Part shown: positions 30,001-48,000 of the stretch, piece after piece
How the letters are laid out: the number at the start of each line of letters is the position of its first letter
How positions within the stretch are numbered: the stretch's first letter is position 1
Source of the DNA: Candidatus Omnitrophota bacterium
Lineage (GTDB): Bacteria > Omnitrophota > Gorgyraeia > VGKH01 > JBHPFN01
NCBI GenBank assembly: GCA_042571725.1
Contig: JBHPFN010000005.1
Location: forward strand, 1,196 to 65,195
Length of the DNA: 64,000 nt
Direction: 5' to 3'
Position numbers and translations under genes: made by a program
The notes under the pieces: model-generated
What the model was told of the DNA's origin: nothing
Seen by the model: only the letters and a program-made list of their open reading frames with translations
Database searches by the model: none

Positions 30001-33000
30001 ACAGGATGGTGCAATGGTTCGCAATCCAAGAGTCCTGATGCCTGTTGAGGAACATGCACTGCCCGATAGGTCAAGAACAAGAGAGTTTTATGAAAGAGGA
30101 GGCTTGGCGTATTTTGAACAATCACGAGGCTGTCCACGAGCAGCATGCACATTCTGTGCAAGTAAGGAGATTCTTGGGTCGAGAATAGCAGGAAGAGGCT
30201 GGCGACCGCTCCCCTTAGATACCGTCATAGAAGATTTAAATATCTTAGAGCGCATGGGTGTTCAACAGGTACGCGCAGCTGATGAAGAATTTTTACCTAT
30301 CGATCCAAAAAGAATGAAAATAGCCAGAGAATTTGCAGAAAGAAAGATTGCAGTGGGTAATGCAGTTAGATTCGACATCATCACAAGAGTAGATTCAATC
30401 TACAATGAAAATGATACAGAAGAAGAAGGACGGGAAAGGGTAGAAACACTGCATCTTTTAAAGCGCGCCGGGCTTGTGAAGATATCATTAGGCGTAGAGT
30501 CGTTTTCTGAGGGTCAGCTGAAGAGATATAACAAGGGCATCAGCACAAAAGAGATTGAAGAGGCAATAAGAATAGTAAAAGAGTTGGGTGTTGACCTCGA
30601 GATAGGTTTTATTCCTCTCGATCCTTTGGCGAGCTTCGCAGAAGTCAAGGAGACCCTCGCCGGACTCGAGAGGACGGAAACAACATTAGAGGCCTCTACT
30701 GCCTTTAAGGAATTAAGAATTCAGCACGGGGCCACGTATGTTGGGCTTGTACGCAGAGAAGAGCAAAGAAGCGGTATCGCAATTCTTGGCCGTCTCGATC
30801 TTAATTCGTTAAATTATCCCGTGGTTCGTTACGCAGACGAGAGAGTTAATATCATTGCACGTAATATGAGAAGCTGGAACGAAAAAGTGTATCAACTCTT
30901 TTATTTGCTGAGAATATACACACAATACTCTTCGTATGAACAAGGTCAAATAGCTGCATTTAGATATTTTGATGCCGCGTTATTCTTTGATCTCATCAAT
31001 GACCTGCGTTATTTAGAACTTGAATTATTTAAGGCGATTATCGCAGAACTTGAAAGAGACGACGATGTACACACCGCAGATATTCGCATACGAACTATCA
31101 TTGGACAGCATGAAGAAAGAAGATCGGAAAAAATCAGGATGTTTTCGTCTGATCTTGATGCAGCTAGACTGACAAGCGCCACAGGAAAAGAAGGTCTAGG
31201 CGCTGATTTGAGACATGCGATTGCCAATTACTTTAGTTATTTGACTCCCTGGTACCGGCTGGCACAGCGATTCACTGACCAGGCATTAGTACACACCTCA
31301 ACACTAGCAGACTACCAAGAGGCGGTAGATGGGGTGATGAGTAGCTTGCAAACAGCTACCGCAGAGCAACGAACGCGGTTCATCGAGGATCTTTGGCGCA
31401 TGGTATCGACATATGCTATTGAGGTTTTCCCACCAGTTTCTGCTGATGGTTCCCGCGTACTCTTCTACGATTATAATCAGGCGAGCGTATTAGATATGCG
31501 TGTACCTAATCAAGGAGGTCCGATTGGGATACGTAGGATATTGTCCGGTAAGCCCACCACCGCCTTCAGTGCACTACGTTTTTTGGGAGTTCAAGCTCAG
31601 CGCAGCGGTTATCCCCATGAAGAGGCACGAGCTCGATCGGTCATCCACCTAGATCCACGTCGAAGGATTGCGCTCATTGCTCCCTCTAGAGTGACACCTG
31701 AAGACATCGAACAAAGTTTACAGGAGGTATCCGAGACTTTAGAGAATATGCAGCCGGGTAGCATATTTGTATTTGGTGGTTCTATACCGGAGAACTTACC
31801 GCCAGAAAGAATCAGCGATCTCGTTAAGCAAGCAAAGAGAAACAAAATATTTGTTGTTGTTGACTTTAGTTCGAAGTTAACTAAACAGCAAGCATTGGCA
31901 GTTCTTACCGCCACCCCGGATGTGATCAAGCCTAATCTATACGAGTTTGAGATGGTATGTCGCTCTGTTGGTTTGATTGAAGAGGATGCGAGCCTACGTG
32001 CTGATAACGATAGAGGGCGCGCAGAAATACTGCGCTATGCCAGAATTATTGTTGAGCGATTTAGTCTTTCTGCAGCGATCGTTACGTTAGGAAGTTACGG
32101 TGCTCTTGTTTATGCCCGTGACGAGTCATATTATGGAAGTTCTTTAGTTTCTACAGAGGAAATCAGGGGATTAATCGGTGCGGGAGATGCATTTTGCGCG
32201 GGGATAGTGTACGAACTTTTGAGGCAAGGCGTCATGCATACCGAAGAGATCGATTGGAAAGCGGTGCTTTCTATGGGATTAAGAGTCGCCTCAGCTAAAG
32301 TAACGCTACCGGGATTAACCATGCCTTCGATGGATTTAGTGGAAAGGCAAGAGATAAGTGAATTGAGACCCATCTCAACTACTACAGCTTCCGGCGAGAC
32401 TAGTAGTTTTACCTCGGTTGGCATAGGACTTTTTGAAATCGTAGAAATTGTTGTTCGTTGGCTGAGTTCCGGCGGCATAAGTATGCCGCTTGGGGTGGCG
32501 CACGGCAGCTCCGGAAATAAAAAGAAGGGTTCTAAGAGCCCAGAAGCAGAATTGGCACAGTGGCAACGTCAGTATGATGATTTAGAACGCGAGATTGCTG
32601 TTCGATTCCCAACGAACGTTCCAAAGGGTATCTCTGGAAGGATGGAAGAAGCGCAGACAGCCATCGCTTCTGCCGAGAGTGTTATCTTATTTCCCGAGCA
32701 GCTTCGGAAAGGAAGGGGCGGAAAAGTAAAACGCCGACAATTTCGCGCCGCAGGACGACAAGAAGTTTCGGTTACAAGAGAATTCCATGAAAGGTTAGGC
32801 GTAGTCAAGCAGAGGGTCAAGGCGCTTAGAGCTGCGTTGGCCGAATATGACCAAGGACAAAATCCGGAAAGAAAGCGCATTGAAGACAGCACTCAAGAGG
32901 TGCTTACTGAGATCTGGGATCAGGTTGACCGGGCGAAAAGCGAGACCAAGTTTTCTTTCTTGGAAAACTTACGCTTGAAGATTATCCAGTTTACCGCCAG

Positions 33001-36000
33001 AAGGGTAGCATTAAGAAAGAAAGCGATTTGGGTACTTAGAAAAACCAGCGATAGCCAATTGTGGAGAGTAATCTTTGCGCCGTTACTTCCGCTACTTGTT
33101 TGGATGGAGAAAGGCTTTATCGTTACCTCAACCGATGCAAGGAAGGTCGGTAGGGCAATCTTTGATTTACGTGGCCGTCAGATCGGGGTAACGCTTGATA
33201 TCGTAGGAGACGCGGCAGCATCCACACAAGAGGCTGAGGAAAGAGTTCGATTCTATCTTACCATGATGGAATATTGGTCGAACAGTGCGCACGAATGGGA
33301 TGCGGTTGAGCAGCTGGATACATTCCCTCATGTGTTCTGTTCAACAAAGATAAGCGCAATTCACTACGATGCATGGGAGCAGGATGGCGAAGGCGCATTC
33401 ATTCATAAGGAAGCGATAAAGGATACGTTTAAAACGTTGGTACGTAAGGCCGCTGAGGTTGATGCCTTTATCCGGATTGACTTAGAGGAGTACGGCTTCC
33501 GCGATGTGACTATGGAGATTTTCCAAGAGGTCGTGGAGGAACTTATTCAGGAGAATCCACGGTTGGTGATTGATGAGGAGCGTAACGTCTTACGTATCGG
33601 AGTAGTGGTGCAGTTGTATCTTAAGGATTCAGGAAAGACCCTGTTCGACTTACGGAAATGGAAAGCTGAAAAAGAACTCCCCCGCATTCCCGTGCGGCCG
33701 GTAAAGGGTGCATATGAAAAGCCGGAGAAGCGCTGGGCAAAAGGTGAGTATGGAGAGACGGATGAATACCGATTCAACGGAGGTAAACCATATCCCGCTC
33801 CGGTATTTGGTAACAAGGAATCAACCGATGCACACTACGAGCTTATGTTAGAGTATCTTATTATGCATCACGATGATTTTCAAACAGCGGTTGCTTCGCA
33901 GAATCCACGTTCTGTTGCGCGCTCAATCGCCTTAGCTAAACACTACGGTTTAAAGCTTGAAGATATGCTGATTCAGATGCTTTTAGGTATGTTTGACTTC
34001 CTTAAGTATGCGCTGGTGAAAATGGGGCTTGCCGTTATGGCCTATCTGCCTGCAGGAAAAGCAATGCGGGCAAATAAATATGTTGGCCGCCGCTTAGAAG
34101 AGCTCGGTAATGAGAAAGAAAGTGCAGTTGTAATGATGATTCTTGGGGACGAGGAGGGCTTGAGAAAACTGCGCAAGCCTCCGAAGTTCCAGCTTAATGA
34201 TTATCCTACCTTTGTTTCCAATGACGTAAGAGAGATTTTCGAGGACATGAAGGCTGATGGAGAAATCCCAAAGGCTGTTGTTCCGGAGCTTGAAACCGCA
34301 GCAGTAAGCATGTTTGTAAGCGGATTCGGTTTTCCGTTTATGACGTTGGGAGTAACTATAGATGCCGGAGATGATACGCCGGAAGCACCTAAGATGCTTG
34401 TCTTACCGGGTGAATTACGGGTTGAAGGATGGGGTGTACACATAGGCGGCATATCGAATCAGAGCATTACCGTGGCGATTGAGCGTACAGAAACGGGTAA
34501 TTACTTTTTCCGCGTTACCGAAGGCCATGTTACTTCTGATGTGGCGTCATTGCCGTTTATTCTATCGTATGCGCTTACCTGTCAGATCATTGAAGATAAA
34601 AATACGTTGGAACAATGGCTCGGCGAAGAAAATCGGCGGGAGATTGAGATAGCGGTACATGTGAATAGTGATAATGCCTTGGAAGTGGAAGTTGAGCCTG
34701 CAAGGATATCGCTGCATATTGGTCTGTTTTTAATTGATGACCGTGCACACACGCATCATTATGGGCCGGCTGCCAGAAGGCGCAAGAGAAACAGGCGAAA
34801 CTTACGATCCTTCCGCGAATCAGCCGTTGCGATAGCATTAGATATGTTAATTCATCCCCAAGATGAAAACGGCATTAGGCAGAGATTAGCTCAACGTTTC
34901 GCAGCAGATCCCTTGCGGCAAGAAGCCTATGAGATTGTTTTGGATAATACGCCGGTATTTAAGATTGTTAAAGCAAATGATGAACCTTCTGCAGAAATGA
35001 GCATGTTTGTAAGCTTAGGTTTAGGTGAAATTGCTTTGATTATTGCAGGTGGAGCGTTTCTCATCTCATTTTTTGCCGGGATAGGCCCGGTCACATTAGA
35101 AAAAACACGCAGGGCAGCGAGACTTGCCGTCTATCACCGTGCACCGAGGTTACTTTTCTGGAGAGCGGTATTTGCAATGACCCGTGGAATTATTGCTATC
35201 TTCAGTCGGTTCTTTAGCAAAGATAGCTGGTTCCCGCCCGAAAACCACATTACATTTTTTGATCTTATGGAAAGGCCTGATTACCAGCACAAGACTGAAC
35301 CGGAGAGAAGGGATCTAGAAAAAGCATTAGGGTTAATGCGGATTATTCCGATAGCCCGAGAGGACCTTTTGGGTATCGCTAAACCGGAGGTTAAGATGTT
35401 TAGGCCGGGTTCCTTTGAAGAGGTCGCGCAGGAAATTCACACTCCCCGGCTGCTTGAATTCGAATTCATGCGGCATGTCTTCAGAAAAAGAGGCAGGGAT
35501 TCACTGAAAAACATAGAAGGGGGTAAACGCATTATTTGTAATTTTGATACCACCCTTGAGATTGAATACCGAGGTAGAAAGACACGTGTTAATTCCCATA
35601 AAGCATGGGCGGTGTGGTTTAAGATTTTGAATATTATCGGCGGAATGGAAGACGAAGACATAGCGAAATTAACCTTTGTGGCTGCCTCGCGGGGAGTATT
35701 GGCTGAAGCAATCATTACCTTGGCACACTTAGTAGGTGCACGCGCAAGGATTTATATGCCATTTGATAAACTTTCTCGCAAGAGGGCTGGCAGGCTTATA
35801 AAGAAGCTGAGCAGGGAAGGCATTCAATATGCTTTACACTACGACTTTATGTTTGTGGGTGAAGACTACGAGCGACATGCGTATCCTGCTGCAGCCCAAT
35901 ACGCACAAGAGTATGCGCCCCGCACCAGATTTATCTCTGCGGTAAACGACAGGACGATGGTAGAAGGCTATGCGCTTATGGTGGTAAAACTCATTGAGCA

Positions 36001-39000
36001 AATGAGAGCTAAGAGATTGCCCGATCCTTCCATGATTATTACTACCTGTGACGTAGGTGCGTATATTCAGGGATTGATTTTAGGGCTGCATGCATTAGGT
36101 TTGAAGAACACTAAGGTTGTAGGGGTGTTATGCGAGGAAGAACATTCAAAGTTGGTTAATGTGCTGCGCGCCCGGGAACAAGGAATAGATTTACAGGGTG
36201 TCTTGGGTGAGCAGTTCTTTGTGGCCGGTCAAGAGAACATCGATATGTTCATGCAATTGGGGGGTGCTGCGGTAACGGTGGGCAGACGCTCTAATCATGT
36301 TGCGGCAGAACTCTTACGTTTTGCAACAGGAGCAGAAGAAATTAGGGATGCACGTGCTTTGGCAGCTCTGTTTGAAGCAGGACCTACGCTTTTAGAAAAA
36401 TCAGGAAATGGGCCGATTGTATTGGATATCAGCAATGCCGAAGACGATAGCGTCTTGACCGCCGATGCCTTTATGCGCAGATCGTACCTTGCGCTTGTTG
36501 TGAGATTCCTGCTTTACACTTTCACAGTATTATTTAGAAGAGGAAACAATCAGGGTCCGGTTAGCTTTGATGAGTTTATCGAACACCACAGGCCAGAGCC
36601 AAAGAGAAGGATGAATATCTTAGTTGTTGAAGACGATAAGAAAGCCCGTGAATATCTACGTGCTACTCTAAGCGCTGCGGGTCATAACGTTACTTTGCTT
36701 GATCCGATGAAGGGGGATATTGTTGCGAGAGTGCTCTCGACAATAGATAAAAATGGGATTGATGCGATTGTCTCTGATTATGAGTATCCTGACGGTAAAG
36801 GAGGAACAATCGGGGCCGAGGAGGTCATTCGACGCTTGCAGCATGAACAAGGTTTTCCGAGGGAGCGGATTATTCTCTGGTCTTCGGTACGCCAGATCCT
36901 TTCTATCAAAACAGGGCTTGATCGTCCAACCGGGGCTGCTGGTAAGGCACAGGATGATTTTCATGCCCAGCCAACCGGAGTCGTGAAACAAATAGAAGAT
37001 TTAGTCGGATTTATGACTTCTAATAGAGAAGAGCTATTGAAATTCATCAATGCGATTATGGAAGATATTATTGCAGAGGAAGCTGCGGCTGAAGAAGCGG
37101 ACAGTGAGTCGGAGATAGGTTGTTTTACCTCAGGTGCAGGAGTTGCGTTGACGAGCATGCTCAGCAGAGAAAAAAGACATGAAATCTGCGTTGTCTGCAA
37201 CAGCAACATCTTCCGCAGCAGGTTATTGCAGCTCTATCTTCAGACGCAGCTTTCGAGACAAGGCATAAAAATATCTTCAGGCGGCCGCTATGAGACCTCG
37301 TTTGAGTATGTTGGCATGTGCTTTAAGGAGATCATCCAATCGTTACGGTTAGTTATTTCGCCGCTTGCGAGATATTTTGCAGTGAATTTGCATACCGGAC
37401 TCGCCAGAGATTATCATCCGAAGATGATGACTCAAGAGAAAGTAGACGCAGCAGATAGCATGCTGGTTGCAACGCATTCTCTTGTTACATGGCTTAAGGA
37501 AGAATTTAGCAATGTTTCAAAGAAGTTATATCTTATAACTGAATTCCTCGATCCTTTGGATCCAGTTTACGGAAATCTACACGGAAACGATCTGCCTGAT
37601 TTAGGCGAAACGTTTAAAACCGCATATGGAGGGCGCGTTTCGATGGATGCGCGCACCCTGTTAGCGATATACGAGCAGTTAAACATAGAACGCATCTTAT
37701 CCAAATCGCCGTATAGAAAAGACCCCATGTATTATATCCGGATAGCCCTCAGGAGCTTAGCCTCTGGAGTCACAAGTCTATTGAGTGGATTCGGCATGGT
37801 GTTAGGTGTATCCATTGCAGCCCAAGAGGAGCCGCTTCTGTTATCGCCGCGGCGCATCGGAAGCAGGATGCTTACCTCAGCCCACGATTCTGATATGCCA
37901 CCGTACCGCCGGCTAGACAAGGCCTCTGTAATTCAGATTATCGCAGATATGCTGTATGTTGCTGGTCTTGGAAGCTTGCCACTGCGCTTTGCGCAACGCC
38001 ACTACAGCATAGCCCTTTATGAGTTTGAGTCACGAGAAATCGTACTGTTAGAGCCCGCATTTAACCTTATCGGCGCTGGACAGTTTGGTTTATTTGCCAG
38101 TCATGAAATAGGTCATTTAGCATTCTTTAGTGGCTTGACCTGGAGGGATGATGATATTGTAACCCATCTTTATCGATACTTCATGAAGTATGGTGACGCA
38201 GAGATATTTGAGCTTCTAAAAACTGAGCTTGGTGTCTCAGATGAAAGAGCAGTGGAAATGATAGTCTTCTTAAAAACGATGCTCTTATGGGGTATGGAGT
38301 TTAATGCAGATGAAGCTGGATTACGGATCATGCAAGCACTGCGATTCCACGAAGATAGTGCGATTTCTTTGTTTGAACAGTCACCCTCGATTCATCAGAG
38401 ATTGTTTGATCAAGGCTATCTTTTGTCTCAGGCTGAAGATAAATGGGGTGATAGGTTTTTCGGAGTAAGCCTCCATCCACCGGTTGAAGATCGCATTGCA
38501 AGAATGCTACGCTTGGCAGCTGAAGCCGAGGAAGAACGAACCAGCGGCGGCATTATACTTCCTGGCTCACCTGATTTTAGGATCGATAGTTCGGATGCAA
38601 GCTTCTTTACTTCGTTTGGTGGGTTTGATCTGATAGGGAATATCGCGACTATGTTCAGCGGATTTGTCTTAGGCGTGGCTGAGGCAGCAGAAGGAAACAG
38701 TTGTAAAATTCGTACTGTCTGTCGTCAGGGCCTTTTCCGCAGTAGGGTTTTAGCGTCTCACTTACAAGAACAACTTGCTGATACAGATTTAGAAATAATC
38801 TCACTCGCCTGGCCGGGAGACGCCTCGATGGCAGAGGGCTACAGATTATTAAGAAGATTGAAAAAATCAGAGGATCCTCGCCTGCCGCCAGGTTCTGATT
38901 CAGAAGTAATCCCACGCATCGCAACAGCGCAGGATATGCACGAGGCAGATATTATCTTAGTGGCAACACAAAATATTTTGGATGAACTAAGAGCAGAATT

Positions 39001-42000
39001 CAGCTTTGCCGCAGAAAAGATGCATCTTATTACTGAATTTTTACCCGCTCGACACCATCTTTATAGGGAAGATGTGCCAGATTTCGCTCAAGTCTTCATG
39101 GCCGCAGACAGAACATCAACTGTAATGAATGAGGCCAATTTGCTGGAAATATACTCACAGTTAGATATCGAACGCATCGTAAGTATGGCGTCTGCACAGC
39201 CCGAGAACACGGAGTCTTCATCGTTACTAAAGCGCATCAATTGGCCGGTAGTGATAACGTTTGCATTTGCAATTATGTTACTCATCGCTTGGTTCATACG
39301 AGACGTGGTGGGTAATTTTGCATTCGTCCAGAACAGCTGGTTGGTGCAGTTAATGCCCATGGATGACGACGGCACCTTGTGGAGTAAGATTAACGGGCAA
39401 TTCCTAAAGTTCCTTAGAATCCCTATGATGACGGGCGGTCTATATATTTTAACCTACATCGGCTGGCGCCTAGCGGGATACTCTGAATCTGAAAAAGGGT
39501 TTTCTAAAAAAGAAAGGCTATTTTGGGTAGGCCTCTTCTGGGTTTTCATGATACACCACATACTTGATAGGCACTTCGGTTGGGGCGCTGGAAGACGCAT
39601 ACTAGAAGGCGAACACTTATGGATTAATTTCGTCCTGCACTCAGTTTCAGCTGGGCTGATGTATAATGTTATGCGCTATTTGTCTTATGGGCCTTTCATT
39701 AGATCTAAAAAGAGCGTTGATGCCTCCAGAAAGGAAGTAGGGGAATCCCGCAAGGAAAGCAGTCTTGAGGCAGGCGTTGTTTCTCTGCAGCTTGACATGG
39801 AGCGGTTCCTTTATTCTATCACAGCCGAATTTCATGATACTGCAGAGTGGATCTTTCCGCGCTATCCGCGTATAAGCAGGCAGTCGTCGATTGCCTTAGC
39901 TGAGGTGCTCTCAAAGGCTTTCGGGCTACCGATTATCGGAAAAGATCCCGATGCCCAAGACAGTCCTAATAGATTAGAGGTAGTAATCGGCATGAAGCGT
40001 ACTACATCACGCCGCGCAGGAGATATCGTCCCCCATGCGTGGCTGGCGGTAGTCATGGATAATAAAAAGGCGCTGTATATTGATGCAACCCTTGGGCAGC
40101 ATGTTCGCGCATTAGAGGGTAAGGTTGCAGTGTTACCGTACGATGAGGCCTTAGAAGAATTTGAGTTTGTAGAGGTGACCGAGCAATTGATTATACAGGA
40201 GATTCACAAAGTAAAATCCCAGGATCTGCGCACGATGCTTTATTATATGCTGAAAGGCGATGAAATCGACTGGCATGAACGGGACGCCGCTATTGATTCC
40301 CCCCAGTTTTACTACATGCTTGCCTTGCTATCATTAAAAACCGACAACGAAAACGTGCGAGCGGGTAATCTGTATTTTCGACTAGAAGACAGAGATGAAG
40401 AAAGGACCGACACGTTAGTTAGAATACTATCAAGCCGGGTAGCTGCCTCAGCGCCTCAAGAAGGGGCTCCGGCCAACAATGCACCAAAGGGTGATGCTGC
40501 GTTCTTCTTAGGCTTGCCAACGCTTCTGTTCGGTATTGAATCTCTTGGTGAACTATTAAACTCAGTTGATCTGGCACCGATCGGGCTCGCATTTGCGCCT
40601 TTCTGGAAGTGGTGGGGCAAGGGAAGGAAAGAGCCAGAACCATCAGAGGTGCCTAGGCAACCAGCTTCAGATGAACCACAACCTCTAGAAAAACCAGAAC
40701 CGTTTTCTGAGGAATTGATAGCTGACCTCGCGGGAATTTTACGTCTAAGGCCAATGGTAACTACTGCAACTTCTGGCCCGGAGAAATTAGTAGAGCTGCT
40801 TGTTAAAAATCTGGATCTCAGAGGCGAAAAGATTTCTAAAGACAGGCTCCAATACAGACCGGAAATTGAGCAATTTCTTGAGGCACTTCTTACAGTCCTT
40901 CGAGACGGGGTTGAATTAGAACAAAAAACCGCAGCAAGGATATTGCTCGCCTTGCGTCTACATCTCTCGAAAAATCTATGGACGCAGATAGTTATACCTA
41001 TGGCTGATCGCCTAGACGTCTGGGGAGAGGTGTGCGATATTACAGGGGAAATACCGTATTCGCAAGCGCTCGTGACCCAATTAAAGAACATTTTAGGCCT
41101 GGAGACGAAAGCAAAAGAAGCTTTAACCCCAGAGGGATTGGTTGTGTTGCTTTCTGAAGAACTAGAGTTTGGAGAAAAGATTGCAAAGAATAGGAAAAAT
41201 ATTGCACAGGCCATTGAAATAATTCTCACCGCCCTCGGTAGTGAAGATATGGTAGAACGAGATACTGCAGCAATAATATTAAGCGCCTTACGTCTTCATC
41301 TCTCAGAGCATCTATGGGAGGAAGTAGTAATGCCCACGGCGCATAGCTTAGGTGTGTGGTCTCAATTTTTAGTTGCTACTTCAGAACAGGGTGAAGAATC
41401 GCCTGTAGCTGAACCTTCTGCTGAAGCTACTGCTGGGGCTGAAACAACTCTTGATCCTGCAACGAAACATCGTTCCAAGGTAGTAAGAAAGACCCCTGCA
41501 GCAATACGAAATCTCTTAGAAGCCGATCCGTGTGATTTTGATTTAGTGTTTGAACGCCTTGGACAGGTTGAAACAGCTCTTGCAAACCTTCCACCTGCAA
41601 TGGTCACCTCAGAACCCGAAGATATCGCATCTCTTCGAAGACGAGCCGAAGAGGCTCAGCGAGTTCACGAGGCTGAATTAGCCGCAGCTGTACCTGCGCC
41701 TTCGCCAACACCCGAACATGGGGCGCCAACACCTTTACCACCGGTAGATGATGTCCGTACAGCCCGAGAGGCTCAGGAAAGAGATATCGATGCCTTGATA
41801 GAAAGACTGCAAGAGTTGCGACATGAAGCACAAATATTCGCAGAGAGGATATTGAAAAAGACAGCCTTTGAGAATTTATCTACTGTTCATCCAATCTATG
41901 TTGATATGATGGAGGAAATCATAGGTATCGATCGTCAAGACCTCACGGGTGACTTACGAGGAAAGGTAATGGCAGCAATGGATACGCTCATACTTGTATA

Positions 42001-45000
42001 TGCACAACGTCTGGATGCAGGTGTTCCGAGAGAAGATAGGCGATGGGGAGAATGGGCGTCGTTTGGTTCTGTGGGCAGTCTAGTAACACGCGAGCAGGAA
42101 AGCTGGTTTAGAGGCGATGGCTCAACATTCGTTGAAACAGAAGAGAAAGAAACCGCAGACTCTCCAGAGAAAGCCACAGCTATTCAGGAAATCCGCGAAG
42201 CATTAGGTGCTACGATAGAGGCTTTAGACAGATTAGGGTCATCATTCCCTCATGAAGATAACTATTGGCCCCTTAGAGATCGTCTAGAAACGCTTTATGC
42301 TCGGCATGCGAGTGTGCTTTCACCTGCGCAAGAAGAATTTCTTAAGCATATAATCACCTTACTGCTTGGTTCAACTATGCCAGCTGAGATAGCCAAAGAA
42401 ATCAGGGATCAACTTGAACCTTTTTCGCAAGACACTATCGGAGTTAAAAAAGCCGCTGCCCCCGAACAGAAAGCCGCAGCCATCCGGGAAATCCGTGAAA
42501 CATTATACGCTGCTGAAGAGATTTTGCGAGGACTAGGATCTCCCCGCGAAGGTACCTATCGTCGCCTTAGGAACATCCTAGAATTGGTTTACCAACGGCA
42601 TGTAAGCGTGCTTTCACCTGAGCAAAGAGAATTTCTTGAGCAAGTAATCACATTACTACTTAGCTTGACTATGCCAGACGAAATAATCAGATATATCAGG
42701 GATCATCTTACACTCTTTTCTAAAGAGGCTGAAAAAGGAGCGCTTGCCCCGACACCACCGTCGGAATCAGCCCCGACACCGGAGGCATCAGACGAAGACA
42801 TATCTTCTTTAACTCCTCTGGAGAGAATCGAAAAAATAGTAGTGGCAATTAAAGGAAATATAGACAGTTTCCATAAAAAGCTGGGGAACCCTCAAGCAGC
42901 ATTCGAGGAGCTCGATGCCGCAATGGGACAGTGGTATACTCTCGATCCGTTAATACAGGAAGAAGGGTTGACAACTGAAGAGGCCATCGCTGCTTGTATG
43001 GGAGACGAGCTTCGACGCAAAGCCGGTCTTGGCCTACGTCAATTAGCAGACGTACAAGCCAACCTAAGAGGTATTCGCAAAAAAGGCGCATTAAGCGCGG
43101 ATCCAGACCGTTTAGAAGAAGCAATACCAATATATGAAGCTGCATTGTTGTTTAGGCCAATGGAAGATCATAGCTCACGAGCTGACATTAATGCGCATCT
43201 TGGCGAGGTAAGAGCCGCACTTGAAGCATACACGCAACCCCATAGAGCAATTCAGGACGGACTAGGTCGGCTGCATGCTTCGACGGATAGGCTTCAAGGT
43301 GCCTTCAGAGATGTGGTTGGATTAGGCCGGGAAGAGCGTCAAGTCTCGGCTCTTAGCCAAGAGGCTATATGGGCTGTTGAAGACGAATTATCATATCTAA
43401 ACCGTTGTTTGAGAGTATTCCGTCAATACCCTGATGAGGATTGGGAGCTTACGGATGCCGAAGTAGCAGGAAAGAGGATTCTGGAGAAAATACAAATGGA
43501 GGATGATGGCTATCACGATTTGTCTTCATCGCTAAGAGACTATGTGGTTGAAGCGTTTTATAGTTTAGGCCGTGCATTGTGCGGAGATTTTACATGGTTT
43601 GATGAAATAACAGACAGAATAGAGATGGAAACGGAGCCATATAGCGAAGGAGAACTTGATAATTTAGAAAAGGCATATGAATATTTTGGACATGTAGTAA
43701 GACTTGCAACTTCTGGGGATAGTAAAAGAGATGCTGAGCTTGCCATGGACCAGATTAAGATAGTTCTTAGAAAGCTCAGGCCGCGTAGTAAAATTTTAGC
43801 TGATGATGAACCGCCGGCAGACCCGACCCCAACGCCACCGTCGGGACCGGCTCCAGGATCTTTCTTAGGAGTAGGAGGAGGAGCTGCCTCAGCGGCATTG
43901 GATGACTTACTTGAAGAAGAGGGGTCTGCTCCGCACCAAGAAGATGCGGGACCTGCTGCGTCGGCTGGCGAAGTGCAAGAAGACACAGGGCCAGCGGCTA
44001 CGCCGACTGGCGAAGTGCCTGCTACGTCGACCGAAGCCGACCCGGCTGGGGAAGCTCGAGCATTATTAATACGTGTCAGAGACACTTTACAATCATTAGA
44101 GAGGTATGATTACGACACCTATGCTCGACTAGGGCAAGAAATAATAAGTTTCCGTGATGCTCATTCTGGTTTGTTGACAGCGGGACAGCTTGAGGTCTTG
44201 AAGCAAGTGAGTACAGACTTGCGTTTCGATGAACCAGAGTCTTCCATAGTAGGGTATATCGATGGCAACCTTGATCGCTTTCCAGAAGCAGTAGTTTCTG
44301 AGTCTGAACCCGAAAGCGAACCAGGAGAGACTGTTGTTGTTCAAACAGGGCAACCCGACAAGCTTCTTACTGCTATCTTTGGTCAACCTACTTTTGCTGA
44401 AGCGGCTGAAGAAGGGCCGGTTGCTGATGCATCTATAGAGGAGCCTTCGGCCGAGGCTGAGTCAGCAGAAGAAGCACCACCAGCTTCGCCTCGCGACATT
44501 ATGTTCGCCTCACAGGATGTAAACGGATATCTACGCTCAGCAGAAGAAGAGATTGAGGCGCAGCACTACGATGACGCAGAGGGGACTTTAGATTCTGCAA
44601 GAAGAGCCCTTGGACGTTTACGAGAGATGGATGAAACACACCGGTCAATAGCCGGATATGAAACAAGGATTGCAGCCTGTGCTGCGGATATTAGTGCGGG
44701 CCAGGATAGACTCGCTGAATATGATTCAGGTGGAACTGCAGATGACGAATCAGATGATGCAGCGCTCTCCGGCATAGAAGCAACGATCGTAGAAATAGCA
44801 GAGGCAATCGAGGAGAATGTGCAGCTTTTCCGAGACCATCTATCAGGCAATCGGGGAGAAGCCCGTGGCTATCTTGATTTGGCAATGTCCCAGCGGCGCA
44901 GGCTTGTTGATTTTATGCGCCAGGAAGGTCTACAGAGCGAACAAGATATTGCCCGCGAGATAAGAGGAAGCATTCGAGGAAGGATGACTAACGCCTTACG

Positions 45001-48000
45001 CAGCCTCGCAGGTCAAAAAGCTAGAATAGGAAGCCTTAATCGCCATGAAGAGGTGCGTGATGCTCGAGGCTTGAGAGATGGTGTAGCAGTTTATTTAGAT
45101 GCATTGAAGTTTATGCCGGGTGACCTTTCTATCAGTCGAGACCTTAGCTTAGCAAGAGGAGCACTTGGAAAGCTTGGGTTACAGGATGAAGAGCCGCGGG
45201 ATTATGGCCCCAGAAGGAGAAGAAGAGGCAGACAACGCGGAGGAGCAAGGCGAGGGGAACAACAACGAGCCGCTGATTTAGGAAGAACTACCGATGCCCT
45301 CGCACGCCGAGCAGAAGAAGAACGGCAAGCCACAGGTTTTAGCCAAGAGGATAGGTGGGCTGTTGAAGACGCATTAGGCTATCTTAAGAGAAATTTAGAC
45401 ATGTTTCGTTCATTTCATGATAAGGCGAATCTTGAAGAAGCAGAAAGACGTGGGCAAACAATATTGGAAAGAATAACTAAGGCTGATGGTAGTTATCATA
45501 ATTTACCCTCTTCGCGTCGATTTCGAGGCGATGTTGTTGAAGCACTCTTCGACTTAGGCCGCGCCTTGTGCGGTGATTTTGAAAGCTTTAGAGACATAAG
45601 CAGCAGAACAAACGAATATACAGAAGAAGAATTAAATAATCTATCCAAGGCAAAGCAGTATTTTGAGGCGGTAAAAGGTTTATCAGTATCTCATGATTTT
45701 ACATGGGGCGAAGCTGATTTAGCCTTGACTTTGATTGGGGATGTTCTTGCTGTGCGACGAAGCGCAACGCCTACTGATGAACCGTCGGCAGGACCTGCCT
45801 CGGCGCCTTCGTCTGCACCGGAATGTGCGGCATTGGCGAGATTTACAGCGACGCCGACAGATGAAACTGTTGATACAGGAGAGCAGGAAGGCGATAGAGT
45901 AGATTTAGTTATTCTTGCTTCAGATTTTCAACAGGGCGTTGTTAGAATTGATGAATTTAGAAGGTTATTCGAGTCAACATACGTAGCAGAAGAACGGCTC
46001 GATAGCGAAGGAGTTCTCGCCCTTCTATGGCGACACGGAGATGCCCCGGGAGTTATTCAATGTACCTTTGCTTCAATCCAGGCTGTTGTGTCAGAAGGGG
46101 TGATTACAGATGTTGCTGTGGAACTAATGGCAGAGCTAGGGGTTCATATTGGAGGAGGTTTTGATTGGGATTGGGCAGAGAACTTCTTTTCTAGGAAGGG
46201 ATACGGTCTGAATGTTGCCAGGGCAGTGCACCCCATATTAGAGAGAGAATCACATACTTCGCAAAGAGTGGAGAAAGTAGAAGAATTAGTTACCGCCTGG
46301 CCTCTGAAAGATAACCAAAAAAGAGAGCTTAAAAAGGCTATTCGTGAGGCATGGCAAAGACTAGCAAGAATCAGCGAAGAACGGCGAGCATCACGGGATC
46401 CTGACTCAGGTCCGGGCAGCGATTCAGGCTCAGGTGACACCTACTTTGCTATCTTCTTTGCGGTTATGCTGGGTGATATTCTGATGAGATGGTTATTGCC
46501 AGAAGCAGACAGCAAAGCCGCTACTGTCGTATTAGGCACAACGCTTGCTTTCATTCCACCGCCCTGCCTGCCGGCAGGCAGGCCTTCGGGTTCGGTTTCA
46601 GGGAGAGGCGAGAACGCATCCGGATTAGATTTACTAAGATTTAGAGATGTAGTTTCGCACATTACTCACCGCGGAGAGAGAGAGTTCATTCCAACGCTGC
46701 GTCGACTGATTAGAGATGCAGGTGTTCAGAAAATCGAGTTTTTACTTGATGACCCAAGCAAGGTCGCTGAAATAAAAAATAAGATCACAGAGCAGGTTGT
46801 TGACTACGCGGATTGGAAAGATATCTTAGCGCTTATCCGCAGTGTATTGTCAACTGAATACGGAATTGATATGTATGAAGTCTTCAGCGCGATAGGAAGA
46901 ACGGCGCGACGACTAAAGGTTGAATATTTTGAGGTAGATATCATTACAGCGTTGCGTGCATTAGAATTCCAGCTGGCACCTGACGATATGCCGGTGTATC
47001 GCTGCGTTGAAGAGCGATATGCAGGGCTACCCGGACTGGATGTATTCAATGGATCAAATTGGGGTATTTCTATGGTAGGCCGCCAACTTGCTGAAAACAA
47101 TGCGAAGGGAGAAAACGTCGTCATGATCGAATCGACTGTCGGCGAATTACGACAGAGAGGTGTGATCATACCTGAATTTGGTTATTCAATTGCTTTGGTT
47201 CAAAAAGAGGGTGAGGCAGGTAAAGTCAATCATAGAGTCGTAAAGAGATTTCCGAACAGTGGCATAGGCGGCGGAGCCGGCGCTGTGGTGTTTGTTGCGC
47301 TCGCGCTGGGTGAGTTATTGAAATGGATATTCCCAGAGACAGCACTGACTACTTTTAGTTGGTGCGGTACTGTTAGCGATAGCAACCCTTTTAGGGCCTC
47401 GTTTACAGATGCCAGTGCTGATTCAGCTCCGATTCAGCTTGCCGCCGGCGGAGGGATAATCAGATTTTTAGCAGGAGATTGGAAACTAAAGAAGAGACGG
47501 AAGCCAAGAAAGACAAAAAGAAAAGCTAAAGAAAAAACTCCCTCTGCTGAATTAAATAAACGCCAACAAAAGGAAAAAGACAAAGGGTTAAGGGCTGTCG
47601 CTGAATTGCTCGAAAGAGGCACGGGACTGGCAGAGCAGGATAATGTTAAAGAAGCTCAAGACAGGTACGAGAGGGCCCAAAGTAAAAAGAACGCTTTAGT
47701 TAAAGCTCATTTGTTAACAGCAGATGAACAAAGAGAATTAGGGGAAGGAATTATAGAGTTGAGCAGAGCCATTGGCAGAGCAAAAAAGAGAGAGCACAAA
47801 CAACGCACAGGTGCTGTTGCAGAGGTGCGCGAGAAATTTTTAGCTGAATTTACCGGAGCATGGGAGGCGGCTCCTACCGTAACAGATAAGTGGCATGTGT
47901 TAAACAATGTACCCAGAGACCATCAGCGCATGGCTGGGGTCCGCGAAAAAGTTGCTCAGCTAACCGAAGATATTGCACAAGCGCAGACACGCCTGGGAGA

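What the first reader, a model, noticed from the sequence alone, without database searches (positions are those of the whole stretch)
36611..39190. Signalling island: a REC receiver followed by LMW-PTP, M48 protease and a second LMW-PTP
A canonical receiver (MNILVVEDD...SDYEYPDG) is followed by two paralogous CX5R(S) phosphatase modules (P-loops at 37196-37219 and 38720-38743). These flank the M48-like protease, and a junction cassette sits between each pair (J19, J20, J21). Elsewhere the ORF carries a PPP phosphatase (22196-23030), an HD domain (13427-13880), a Fic-like module (54560-55010) and Fis-type HTHs (21701-22113). One chain therefore holds many post-translational-modification erasers and writers but no kinase that I recognised. 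That profile resembles effector arsenals aimed at another cell's signalling more than housekeeping regulation.
Basis: inference. Interest (0 to 1): 0.55.

Follow-up and report, generated by a model that had tools for sequence, protein, structure and literature searches.

The report
Enzyme beads in a giant gene
The stretch holds a receiver-like domain, two related small phosphatases and a zinc protease, but they are separate beads in one enormous gene of the kind known from predatory Omnitrophota bacteria, not a self-contained signalling system.

Summary
The observation largely holds. The whole 64-kb window is one open frame (0 stops in 21,333 codons). At 36611-39190 it encodes four modules:
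- a receiver-like domain with the acidic pair and the phospho-acceptor Asp, but Gln where the conserved Lys should be;
- an M48-like zinc protease (HEIGH, EFNAD, HPPVEDRI).

The LMW-PTP fold is well supported: AlphaFold pLDDT 89, and the 50 best Foldseek hits listed are all LMW-PTP-fold proteins. PTP1 keeps the DP(V)Y general-acid loop. PTP2 has His-His there instead.

Hydrophobic, Gly/Ser-rich junction cassettes separate the units and recur at least 20 times in the window.

The only relatives among 1.84 billion representative proteins are nine sequences, mostly long ORFs or fragments of them. Five are named as Candidatus Omnitrophota, and several carry recurring junction motifs of their own. 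The module order is not conserved among them.

Other modules in the same ORF are mostly metabolic enzymes, and an AcrB-like transporter is also present. The receiver sits in the same cassette-bounded unit as a PLP enzyme.

I read this as a new member of the described Omnitrophota multi-enzyme giant proteins. The "effector arsenal against signalling" reading is neither shown nor excluded. The junction cassettes, not mentioned in the three Omnitrophota papers I checked, are the most interesting lead.

The parts
2..64000 (+). One uninterrupted reading frame (21,333 codons), open at both window ends. It is part of a giant multi-module gene.
   Evidence: 0 stops in this frame versus 658-1656 in the other five. 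At least 20 different Pfam families lie along it. No Rfam family and no tRNA in the window.
35594..36310 (+). PLP-dependent enzyme module (PALP, threonine-dehydratase-like). It lies in the same cassette-bounded unit as the receiver-like domain.
   Evidence: PF00291 E 1.7e-10, 41.1 bits, above the gathering score. NCBIfam IlvA-like weak hits. No cassette between it and 36611.
36611..36985 (+). Receiver-like (CheY-like) domain. It has the acidic pair EDD (aa 12210-12212) and the putative phospho-acceptor Asp 12259 in IVSD. The conserved Lys is replaced by Gln in DDFHAQP.
   Evidence: PF00072 E 1.8e-4, 22.1 bits, below the gathering score of 30.2. phmmer to KdpE aligns the Asp residues. hhalign vs 4 canonical receivers: 95% probability, E 3.5e-8, covering only beta1-alpha3. 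Global alignment shows Q at the Lys position.
37112..37165 (+). Junction cassette J19. Only the N-terminal anchor half is present (EIGCFTSGAGVALTSMLS).
   Evidence: Matches the recurring x-[AS]-x-F-[TI]-[GSA]-phi-G motif. The motif occurs 22 times in the ORF versus 1.6 +/- 1.3 in shuffles.
37181..37702 (+). LMW-PTP-like module 1. P-loop CNSNIFRS at 37196-37219. Candidate general-acid loop LDPVYG at 37556-37573. Family motif NDLPDLGE at 37586-37609.
   Evidence: AlphaFold pLDDT 89.3. Foldseek: the 50 best hits listed are all LMW-PTP-fold proteins (YwlE, Wzb and similar), probability 1.0. Profile vs PDB E 1.5e-7. Paralog of module 2, E 7e-20.
37754..37819 (+). Junction cassette J20. Only the C-terminal anchor half is present (SLASGVTSLLSGFGMVLGVSIA).
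   Evidence: Contains the recurring phi-V-L-G-V-[AS] anchor: 11 copies versus 0.65 expected.
37835..38530 (+). M48-like zinc metalloprotease module. HEIGH at 38102-38116, EFNAD at 38297-38311, HPPVEDRI at 38474-38497.
   Evidence: PF01435 E 0.0044, 17.3 bits, below the gathering score of 20.3. Both homologs also hit, best E 3.1e-7. Homolog P0001 passes the gathering score (24.3 bits) and NCBI names it 'M48 family metalloprotease'. phmmer to P0001 gives E 1.2e-23. The structure model was poor, pLDDT 53.
38594..38689 (+). Junction cassette J21, a complete copy (DASFFTSFGGFDLIGNIATMFSGFVLGVAEAA).
   Evidence: Cassette HMM hit with independent E 8e-8. Both the N- and the C-anchor are present.
38705..39184 (+). 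LMW-PTP-like module 2. P-loop CRQGLFRS at 38720-38743. ARHHLY (39047-39064) lies where the Asp-Pro-Tyr loop should be. Family motif EDVPDF at 39068-39085.
   Evidence: Paralogy with module 1. phmmer alignment to T. thermophilus LMW-PTP places HH opposite DP. Family alignment and PDB profile hits.
39242..39298 (+). Strongly hydrophobic segment (WPVVITFAFAIMLLIAWFI) that opens the next, unannotated unit.
   Evidence: Kyte-Doolittle 19-residue mean of 2.4.

Best explanation
The region is a run of four independent, cassette-delimited enzyme units inside one giant ORF (more than 21,333 codons). The ORF is of the 'multi-enzyme' type described in Candidatus Omnitrophota. The units are:
1. a PLP-dependent enzyme with a C-terminal receiver-like domain;
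2. an LMW-PTP-like phosphatase with a complete catalytic set (Cys-X5-Arg-Ser plus Asp-Pro-x-Tyr);
3. an M48-like zinc protease;
4. a diverged paralog of the phosphatase, with His at the general-acid position.

**Shown**
- the single ORF;
- the fold or family of the phosphatase and protease modules;
- the paralogy of the two phosphatase modules;
- the recurring cassettes at unit boundaries;
- the Omnitrophota naming of five of the nine relatives;
- the lack of a conserved module order.

**Inferred**
- Each unit works as a separate enzyme.
  - The phosphatase would use Cys-thiolate attack on a phosphomonoester.
  - The protease would use Zn/Glu-activated water for peptide cleavage.
- The units are either tethered along the membrane by the hydrophobic cassettes or released by cleavage there.
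- The units do not form a phosphorelay with one another.
- The second phosphatase copy arose by local duplication, like many other duplications in this ORF.
For: - **Single ORF:**
- **Heterogeneous domain content, dominated by metabolic enzymes plus an RND transporter:**
- **LMW-PTP fold and P-loops:**
- **M48 motifs and transitive family match:**
- **Receiver-like N-terminal two-thirds:**
- **Cassettes**
  - Cassette copies find one another by blastp, E 1e-5 to 1e-13.
  - At least 20 copies; N-anchor motif 22 observed vs 1.6 expected.
  - They are conserved as amino acids with varied synonymous codons.
  - The cassettes mapped do not fall inside the best-matching stretches of the Pfam hits.
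- **Relatives**
  - There are only nine in 1.84e9 representative proteins. Five are named as Omnitrophota MAG proteins and most are long ORFs or fragments.
  - In the relatives, homologous modules are likewise bounded by that gene's own junction motif. Examples are FGCFxFLP around the M48 module of P0001 and SSSPx around the PTP module of P0006.
  - Module order differs among relatives.
- **Internal signals**
  - Promoter-like sites in 34-41 kb are fewer than in shuffles (5 vs 10.8) and terminator-like sites are at chance level.
  - No Shine-Dalgarno enrichment before internal Met codons.
- **Published description of such giants:** REC, radical SAM and HD domains, and up to about one TM helix per 370 aa, in 10.64898/2026.06.07.730766.
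Against: - Every island module is below Pfam's curated threshold by itself, so catalytic competence is not assured.
- PTP2 lacks the Asp general acid and the receiver lacks the conserved Lys. These could be relics or non-catalytic binding modules.
- The window's own taxon is inferred only from distant homologs (29-38% identity).
- No close relative, gene end or neighbourhood could be retrieved.
- Whether the cassettes span the membrane, form hairpins or are cleaved is unknown.
- A weak M50-like protease match next to a PTP-like module in P0004 hints that protease and phosphatase adjacency might not be accidental.
Confidence: 0.7

Rival explanations
1. Effector arsenal. The giant protein is exported or surface-displayed by a predatory or episymbiotic cell. 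The phosphatase, protease, Fic-like and HD modules would act on the prey's phospho-signalling and proteins.
For: - The relatives come from Omnitrophota.
- The literature links the giant ORFs of that phylum to prey attachment and predation.
- Secreted LMW-PTPs such as M. tuberculosis MPtpA are known effectors (established knowledge; MPtpA is among the fold hits).
- There are many hydrophobic segments, about 1 per 344 aa.
Against: - Most recognisable modules are cofactor-dependent cytoplasmic-type enzymes: radical SAM/B12, PfkB, ADH, proline dehydrogenase, PLP enzyme.
- A 12-TM-type RND transporter is also present. Both of its ends are normally cytoplasmic.
- I recognised no secretion signal, adhesin, dockerin or SecA/C39 domain in the window.
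- No known C-terminal sorting-signal model matches the cassettes.
- The gene ends and the neighbourhood are unavailable.
Confidence: 0.15
2. Polyprotein. The junction cassettes are processing signals. The chain would be cut at or in the membrane into separate enzymes. The embedded membrane-type proteases (here the M48-like module) would do part of the cutting.
For: - The cassette anchors are specific, conserved peptide motifs rather than generic hydrophobic stretches. Phe in the N-anchor is invariant across the 16 aligned copies.
- Many C-anchors end in small-x-small strings such as VAFA, ALA and GVAA.
- Different giants have different but equally regular junction motifs.
- Giants that carry these modules also contain M48, M50-like and signal-peptidase-II modules.
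- West-Roberts et al. propose cleavage but state that cleavage points are unknown.
Against: - There is no direct evidence of cleavage.
- The residue before the invariant Phe is variable (C/M/H/N/S/F/L), so there is no conserved self-cleaving nucleophile.
- The N-flanks are acidic, unlike signal peptides.
- Cassettes are undetected over long stretches, for example aa 13100-17000.
Confidence: 0.1
3. Decaying relics. The receiver-like, PTP2 and possibly M48 modules would be inactive remnants carried along in a fast-evolving ORF, with no signalling or catalytic role.
For: - Pfam scores are sub-threshold.
- The receiver has Lys replaced by Gln.
- PTP2 has Asp-Pro replaced by His-His.
- The Fic-like motif is degenerate.
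- Giant-protein domains are reported as highly divergent.
Against: - Cys, Phe and Ser of the P-loop are invariant, and Arg is present in 8 of 9 family members at 26-35% overall identity.
- All three M48 zinc/active-site motifs are invariant in the three homologs.
- His at the general-acid position is the family consensus rather than a one-off loss.
- 64 kb without a stop codon implies strong selection on the frame.
Confidence: 0.05

Closest known systems
Omnitrophota giant proteins: 'multi-enzyme metabolic cluster' class (Nielsen & Lui 2026, bioRxiv 10.64898/2026.06.07.730766) and 'Archaeovorin' type (West-Roberts et al. 2023, bioRxiv 10.1101/2023.11.21.568195)
   Same: - A single ORF of more than 10,000 codons.
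- Many different, highly divergent enzyme domains, with no one family dominating.
- REC, radical SAM, HD and peptidase content.
- A hydrophobic segment every few hundred residues.
- Almost no close sequence relatives.
- Five of the nine homologs found here are named as Omnitrophota MAG proteins.
   Different: - The gene ends are not in the window, so the hallmark N-terminal C39/S8 peptidase and the SecA_DEAD domains could not be checked.
- The regular junction cassette motifs described here are not mentioned in either preprint.
- The window's taxon is inferred, not shown.
Low-molecular-weight protein tyrosine/arginine phosphatases (PF01451; B. subtilis YwlE, E. coli Wzb, M. tuberculosis MPtpA, bovine BPTP)
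   Same: - The fold (Foldseek probability 1.0, target-normalised TM 0.6-0.72).
- An N-terminal C-X5-R-S P-loop with the conserved Asn (PTP1).
- A DPxY loop in PTP1.
   Different: - Phe replaces the second P-loop Cys (C-x-x-N-x-F-R-S-R).
- Two extra helices are inserted after beta2.
- An added conserved motif, LISEFLPxxHxLYxxDxPDLGE.
- His rather than Asp at the general-acid position in most members, including PTP2.
- All members found lie in long ORFs or contig-limited fragments. The one called as a 182-aa gene (P0009) is the C-terminal end of a 1409-aa ORF.
- About 12-20% identity to solved structures.
M48 zinc metalloproteases (PF01435; HtpX, Ste24, BepA, Oma1)
   Same: - HEXXH.
- A Glu in E-x-x-A-D about 65 residues downstream.
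- The C-terminal H-P-P-x-x-x-R-I motif.
- Hydrophobic segments on both sides.
   Different: - Below the Pfam threshold by itself.
- No confident structure model.
- Embedded as an internal module of a giant chain rather than being a free-standing membrane protein.
CheY-like receiver domains (PF00072), including atypical or pseudo-receivers
   Same: - The beta1-alpha3 region aligns at 95% hhalign probability.
- The acidic pair and the phospho-acceptor Asp are in place.
   Different: - The C-terminal third does not align locally.
- Gln stands at the conserved Lys position.
- I found no histidine kinase and no typical output domain in the window.
- It is fused after a PLP-dependent enzyme.
Viral polyproteins with internal hydrophobic signal or cleavage segments (e.g. 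flavivirus polyprotein). This is an analogy only.
   Same: One long translation product in which functional units are separated by short, recurring, partly hydrophobic junction sequences.
   Different: - There is no evidence of cleavage here.
- The setting is bacterial.
- The units are mostly metabolic enzymes.
- There is no sequence relationship.

Membership tests
Response-regulator receiver (PF00072, CheY-like) | Acidic pair at the end of beta1 and phospho-acceptor Asp at the end of beta3 | tested here: met
   VVEDD and IVSD align with D12/D13 and D57-equivalent residues of KdpE, CheY, Spo0F and PhoB.
Response-regulator receiver (PF00072, CheY-like) | Conserved Lys at the end of beta5 (K109 of CheY, in the K-P motif) | tested here: not met
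   Global MAFFT alignment puts HAQP opposite V/S/A/T-K-P, so Gln replaces Lys. Local profile alignments stop before this region.
Response-regulator receiver (PF00072, CheY-like) | Conserved Ser/Thr at the end of beta4 | tested here: inconclusive
   IILWSS could supply it, but the alignment is gapped there.
Response-regulator receiver (PF00072, CheY-like) | Score above Pfam's gathering threshold and a full-length (beta-alpha)5 match | tested here: not met
   22.1 bits versus 30.2, covering profile positions 1-77 of 111.
LMW-PTP (PF01451) | LMW-PTP fold (four-stranded parallel sheet with the P-loop after beta1) | tested here: met
   PTP1 model pLDDT 89.3 and pTM 0.86. The 50 best Foldseek PDB hits listed are all LMW-PTP-fold proteins. 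PTP2 is assigned by paralogy and by the family profile.
LMW-PTP (PF01451) | C-X5-R-(S/T) P-loop at the N-terminus | tested here: met
   CNSNIFRS at 37196-37219 and CRQGLFRS at 38720-38743. Cys, Phe and Ser are invariant, and Arg is present in 8 of 9 family members.
LMW-PTP (PF01451) | General-acid Asp in the D-P-Y/F loop | tested here: inconclusive
   PTP1 has LDPVYG, which aligns with DP(Y). PTP2 and most family members have His (consensus PxxHxLY) at that position. I had no model coordinates to check the geometry.
LMW-PTP (PF01451) | Score above Pfam's gathering threshold | tested here: not met
   No hit for PTP1. PTP2 scores 13.5 bits versus 23.2. Six of the 9 family members hit at E<=1, best E 5.8e-5.
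LMW-PTP (PF01451) | Phosphatase activity and substrate class (pTyr, pArg or small esters) | not testable with these tools
   Needs enzymology.
Peptidase M48 (PF01435) | HEXXH zinc site plus a third-ligand Glu in E-x-x-A-D, and the C-terminal HPPxxxRI motif | tested here: met
   HEIGH, EFNAD and HPPVEDRI. The His, Glu, Ala-Asp, Pro and Arg-Ile residues of these motifs are invariant in the three homologs. The best PDB hit is Ste24p at these motifs, but it is weak (E 0.28).
Peptidase M48 (PF01435) | Score above Pfam's gathering threshold | tested here: not met
   17.3 bits versus 20.3 for the window's module. Homolog P0001 (E 1.2e-23 to the window) passes with 24.3 bits.
Peptidase M48 (PF01435) | Zincin-like fold | tested here: inconclusive
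   AlphaFold pLDDT 53 from a 3-sequence alignment. The Foldseek hits are meaningless.
Omnitrophota giant multi-enzyme ORF | ORF of at least 10,000 codons that carries many distinct enzyme families and frequent hydrophobic segments | tested here: met
   More than 21,333 codons. At least 20 Pfam families. 62 hydrophobic peaks.
Omnitrophota giant multi-enzyme ORF | Encoded in an Omnitrophota genome | tested here: inconclusive
   Five of the nine homologs are named as Candidatus Omnitrophota/Omnitrophica MAG proteins. The window itself was not found in GTDB genomes or JGI metagenomes.
Omnitrophota giant multi-enzyme ORF | N-terminal C39/S8 peptidase and SecA_DEAD domains; nearby type II secretion or pilus genes | not testable with these tools
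   Both gene ends and the flanks lie outside the window. None of these domains was seen inside it.
Two-component phosphorelay / coherent signalling operon | Cognate histidine kinase (HisKA/HATPase_c) or Hpt, and an output controlled by the receiver | tested here: not met
   No such Pfam hit at the thresholds used and no DxGxG motif in the 21,333 aa. The receiver follows a PLP enzyme with no cassette between them.
C-terminal sorting signals (PEP-CTERM, PGF-CTERM, GlyGly-CTERM, LPXTG and similar), considered for the cassettes | Match to a curated sorting-signal model: motif, then TM helix, then basic tail | tested here: not met
   Ten cassettes were scanned against NCBIfam at E<=10. The only sorting-signal match was one sub-threshold PVV-CTERM hit on the TM part (13.8 bits vs 27).

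The most novel reading that the evidence does not exclude
The junction cassettes, and the gene-specific counterparts in other Omnitrophota giants (FGCFxFLP, SSSPV), may be a dedicated boundary signal that turns these giant ORFs into bacterial polyproteins or membrane-arrayed enzyme 'necklaces'.

The window's cassette has three parts: an N-anchor x-[AS]-x-F-[TI]-G-phi-G, about 20 hydrophobic or small residues, and a C-anchor phi-VLGV[AS] or EWLWPGxG.

Each cassette would either be cut by membrane proteases carried in the same chain (here the M48-like module) or fold as a two-helix monotopic anchor. PTP1 would be a whole domain inserted between the two halves of one cassette (J19 and J20). The LMW-PTP-like modules would then be released or displayed as separate enzymes, possibly acting on prey.
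Probability: 0.2. Interest if true: 0.8.

Novelty: new member of a known kind. Interest (0 to 1): 0.45.

Why it matters
Giant Omnitrophota genes are among the largest known, and their function is unresolved. A central open question, stated by West-Roberts et al., is whether the product is cut into pieces. They note that no cleavage points are known.

The island itself adds two things:
- a well-supported, previously unnamed LMW-PTP-like subfamily (P-loop C-x-x-N-x-F-R-S-R) found so far only in long ORFs or their fragments, several from Omnitrophota;
- an M48-like module.

The more useful outcome concerns the unit boundaries. They are marked by short motifs that are conserved at the protein level and specific to each gene. 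This gives a concrete way to split giant proteins into units for structure prediction. It also predicts exactly where to look for neo-termini in proteomics data.

Tried and rejected
**Searches for relatives and for the source**
- Word-indexed homology searches found nothing: the 860-aa island, the PLP+REC unit and a 16-copy cassette alignment.
- An exact 40-mer from the island is absent from GTDB genomes and from JGI metagenomes.
- Peptide-pattern scans of both collections gave no confirmed relative.
- As a result, the source genome, the gene ends and the neighbourhood could not be obtained.

**Structure**
- The AlphaFold model of the M48 module was too poor (pLDDT 53), and its Foldseek hits are noise.

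**What the cassettes are not**
- Known C-terminal sorting signals: no NCBIfam model reached threshold.
- A nucleotide-level element such as a recombination or RNA signal: rejected, because synonymous codons vary freely at the conserved residues.
- A lipobox or an intein/Hedgehog-like Cys-Phe self-cleavage site: rejected. The residue before the invariant Phe is Cys in only 5 of 20 copies. In addition, the hydrophobic part follows rather than precedes it.

**Internal expression signals**
- Internal translation starts: no Shine-Dalgarno enrichment before internal Met codons (13.9% vs 14.9% background).
- Internal transcription units: promoter-like sites are depleted and terminator-like sites are at chance level in 34-41 kb.
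- No Rfam family or tRNA in the window.

**Other leads dropped**
- A stand-alone LMW-PTP-like gene next to giants: rejected.
  - P0009 is the C-terminal end of a 1409-aa ORF.
  - The 171-aa gene after the giant in L003 is unrelated.
- 'PPP phosphatase' for the Metallophos module: only GNHD is present, so I downgraded it to a generic metallophosphoesterase.

Full report
**What is in the sequence**

The frame starting at nt 2 of the + strand has no stop codon anywhere in the 64,000-nt window (21,333 codons). The other five frames have 658 to 1656 stops each. The finding therefore lies inside one giant ORF that runs off both ends of the window.

The coordinates given for the two CX5RS P-loops are exact: CNSNIFRS at 37196-37219 and CRQGLFRS at 38720-38743.

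**The two phosphatase modules**

They are clear paralogs: aa 12394-12567 vs 12902-13061, 32% identity, E 7e-20 in a self-comparison of the ORF. On their own they barely register in Pfam (no hit, and E 0.08).

An exhaustive HMMER search of 1.84 billion representative proteins with the 860-aa island found only nine relatives, seven of which match the phosphatase modules. From these I built a nine-member family alignment (A1).
- Its profile hits 38 PDB chain sequences, all but one named LMW-PTP-type, best E 1.5e-7.
- Six of the nine members hit PF01451, best E 5.8e-5.
- AlphaFold2 on this alignment gave a confident model of module 1: pLDDT 89.3, pTM 0.86.
- The 50 best Foldseek hits listed in the PDB are all LMW-PTP-fold enzymes (YwlE arginine phosphatase, Wzb, AmsI, MPtpA and others). 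E is about 1e-6 to 1e-4, probability 1.0, and target-normalised TM reaches 0.72.

The family consensus is VCxxNxFRSRLL ... ADIILVAT ... LISEFLPxxHxLYxxDxPDLGE. Phe replaces the second Cys of the canonical CxGNxCRS loop.

At the position of the catalytic Asp-Pro, most members including PTP2 (ARHHLY) have His. PTP1 (LDPVYG) and one relative have Asp. So PTP1 has the full canonical catalytic set. PTP2 has the nucleophile and the Arg but a non-canonical general-acid position.

**The protease module**

It carries HEIGH, then EFNAD 65 residues downstream, then HPPVEDRI. These are the three M48 signatures, and their key residues are invariant in the alignment with its two homologs.
- Its own Pfam score is below threshold (17.3 vs 20.3 bits).
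- All three family members hit PF01435, best E 3.1e-7.
- The homolog P0001 (E 1.2e-23 to the window) passes the threshold (24.3 bits). NCBI names it an M48 family metalloprotease.
- The structure model was poor (pLDDT 53) and its fold search uninformative.

**The receiver**

It is receiver-like, not canonical.
- PF00072 matches at E 1.8e-4 (22.1 bits, below 30.2) over profile positions 1-77 of 111.
- The acidic pair and the phospho-acceptor Asp align.
- In the global alignment the invariant Lys-Pro is Gln-Pro (HAQP).

No junction cassette separates this domain from the PLP-dependent enzyme module just upstream (PF00291, E 1.7e-10). The flanking cassettes are at aa 11665 and 12371. The receiver-like domain is therefore better read as the C-terminal domain of that enzyme unit.

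**Junction cassettes**

The three junctions in the finding are real.
- J19 (37112-37165) has only the N-terminal anchor.
- J20 (37754-37819) has only the C-terminal anchor.
- J21 (38594-38689) is complete.

Across the window I found at least 20 copies. Each has three parts:
- a polar flank, often Gly/Ser/Thr/Pro-rich and on average slightly acidic;
- an N-anchor x-[AS]-x-F-[TI]-[GSA]-phi-G;
- about 20 hydrophobic or small residues ending in phi-V-L-G-V-[AS] or E-W-L-W-P-G-x-G.

Further properties:
- Cassette copies find one another by blastp at E 1e-5 to 1e-13.
- The N-anchor pattern occurs 22 times against 1.6 +/- 1.3 in shuffles. The C-anchor occurs 11 times against 0.65.
- Synonymous codons vary freely at the conserved residues, so selection acts on the peptide and not on the DNA.
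- The cassettes mapped here do not fall inside the best-matching stretches of the Pfam hits.
- No curated C-terminal sorting-signal model matches them.
- They contain scattered charged residues. The longest uncharged run is 14-35 residues, typically about 18. The N-flank mean charge is -1.1 and the C-flank +1.0. Whether they span the membrane is open.

**Context and origin**

The rest of the ORF is not mainly about signalling. Pfam finds:
- GHMP-kinase N-terminal domain, a carboxylase domain, alpha-amylase and HD;
- Zn-alcohol dehydrogenase, two HTH_8 and Metallophos;
- B12-binding plus radical SAM;
- PfkB;
- proline dehydrogenase (E 4e-48) and PALP;
- a weak Fic-like match (HPFEEGGNHR);
- an AcrB-like RND transporter (E 3e-83).

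I found no protein kinase.

Of the nine homologs of the island's modules, five are named as Candidatus Omnitrophota/Omnitrophica MAG proteins. The nine range from 182 to 6528 aa, and most are partial or contig-limited.

This matches the published description of Omnitrophota giant ORFs. [quoted passage not shown] West-Roberts et al. and Seymour et al. give related accounts.

The window itself was not found in GTDB genomes or JGI metagenomes, by exact DNA or by peptide patterns.

**Is the island a unit?**

No relative shows REC-PTP-M48-PTP. Each related protein has a single PTP-like or M48-like module. In the four relatives scanned, the neighbours differ:
- a weak M50-like peptidase match and HMGL-like in P0004;
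- trehalose synthase (TreT_GT1) in P0008;
- ARMT1 and signal peptidase II elsewhere in P0007.

In those relatives the homologous modules are again bounded by a junction motif, but a different one in each gene:
- x-F-G-C-F-x-F-L-P on both sides of the M48 module of P0001;
- S-S-S-P-x on both sides of the PTP module of P0006 (17 copies vs 0.05 expected);
- HFT..G...LLGV before the PTP module of P0002;
- HFTSSVAGG before that of P0003.

So modules are shuffled among giants, while each giant keeps its own regular boundary motif. Neither preprint mentions linkers, junctions or such motifs. [quoted passage not shown]

**Interpretation**

My best explanation (confidence about 0.7) is that these are independent enzyme units of a giant Omnitrophota-type multi-enzyme ORF. 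They would be tethered or delimited by hydrophobic cassettes. The second phosphatase would be a local duplicate, like the many other internal duplications.

There is no evidence for a phosphorelay among the units. The effector-arsenal reading (about 0.15) fits the predatory-lifestyle hypothesis in the literature. It is not tested by anything in the window, and it sits uneasily with the many cofactor-dependent enzymes and the RND transporter in the same chain.

A polyprotein reading (about 0.1 as the main explanation) would have the cassettes cleaved, perhaps by the membrane-type proteases embedded in these chains. It is attractive because of the motif specificity and the recurrent M48, M50-like and A8 modules. 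There is no direct support for it.

A 'decayed relic' reading (about 0.05) is weakened by the invariance of the catalytic residues across 26-35% identical homologs.

**Checks on both strands and for embedded elements**

- No Rfam family and no tRNA in the window.
- Only three minus-strand ORFs of 150 aa or more, none in the finding.
- Promoter-like sites in 34-41 kb are fewer than in shuffles (5 vs 10.8 +/- 2.7). Terminator-like sites are at chance level.
- No Shine-Dalgarno enrichment before internal Met codons.

**Verdict**

- The domain observation is largely correct, with two qualifications: an atypical receiver, and no Asp general acid in PTP2.
- The 'signalling island / effector arsenal' interpretation is only partly supported.
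- The object is a new, very divergent member of a recently described kind.
- The junction-cassette system deserves follow-up in its own right.

Noticed in passing
window 2-64000 (+): The entire 64-kb window is a single stop-free reading frame (21,333 codons) that runs off both ends. GC skew is positive in every 2-kb bin.
   Followed up: yes
window, about 20 sites (e.g. 1115-1240, 4484-4591, 10817-10924, 25088-25201, 32396-32509, 51221-51361, 54386-54517, 58571-58699, 60464-60577, 61070-61201): A recurring junction cassette. It has an N-anchor x-[AS]-x-F-[TI]-G-phi-G, about 20 hydrophobic or small residues, and a C-anchor phi-VLGV[AS] or EWLWPGxG. It is conserved at the amino-acid level but not the nucleotide level. 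It is not mentioned in the two giant-gene preprints, and the passages of Seymour et al. that I read do not mention it either.
   Followed up: partly
P0001 (MBL7130250.1), P0006/P0012 (locus L003 10001-29617), P0002, P0003, P0008: Other long Omnitrophota proteins have their own regular junction motifs: FGCFxFLP in P0001, and SSSP[VIAL] in P0006 (17 copies vs 0.05 expected). 'SSSPVAGG' and 'HFTSSVAGG' look like links between the SSSPV type and the window's F-T-S/G N-anchor.
   Followed up: partly
window 37112-37165 and 37754-37819: PTP1 lies between a cassette N-anchor half (J19) and a cassette C-anchor half (J20). It looks as if a whole domain had been inserted into one cassette. This would fit a two-helix hairpin whose loop tolerates insertions.
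   Followed up: no
window about 61082-64000 (aa about 20361-21333): A near-complete AcrB/RND transporter module (PF00873 E 2.7e-83, profile positions 254-976 of 1021, plus an upstream TM1-like helix) lies in-frame in the same ORF. A cassette N-anchor directly precedes it.
   Followed up: partly
window aa 8108-8384, 13241-13515 and 18359-18608 (nt about 24323-25153, 39722-40546, 55076-55825): Three paralogous modules of unknown family (E 1e-8 to 6e-18). One lies just downstream of PTP2. Motifs such as VCERSS...HAW...YID suggest a transglutaminase-like or cysteine-protease core, with the catalytic residues not all kept in each copy.
   Followed up: no
window aa 14061-15273 and 8426-9220 (nt about 42182-45820 and 25277-27661): Several internal tandem or dispersed duplications of long unannotated segments, for example aa 14262-14616 vs 14913-15273 (35-45% identity, E 1e-31 to 1e-33). 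No Pfam family matches aa 13067-15666 apart from one insignificant TPR hit.
   Followed up: no
P0004, P0007, P0001: Giants that carry the PTP-like or M48-like modules also carry other membrane-type proteases: a weak M50-like match directly upstream of the PTP module in P0004, and signal peptidase II (A8) in P0007. This may bear on processing at the hydrophobic junctions.
   Followed up: no
L001 7-10549; L001 10651-11154; L003 29633-30977: In L001 the 'stand-alone' PTP-like P0009 is really the C-terminal end of a 1409-aa ORF. That ORF overlaps the preceding 2116-aa ORF in another frame, which means a frameshift or sequencing error in a giant gene. In both L001 and L003 the giant gene is followed by PilZ-domain genes.
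   Followed up: partly
window 54833-54871 (aa 18278-18290): The Fic-like module has HPFEEGGNHRLAL instead of the canonical HxFx(D/E)GNGRxxR, that is a one-residue insertion with His in place of Gly. AMPylation competence is doubtful.
   Followed up: partly
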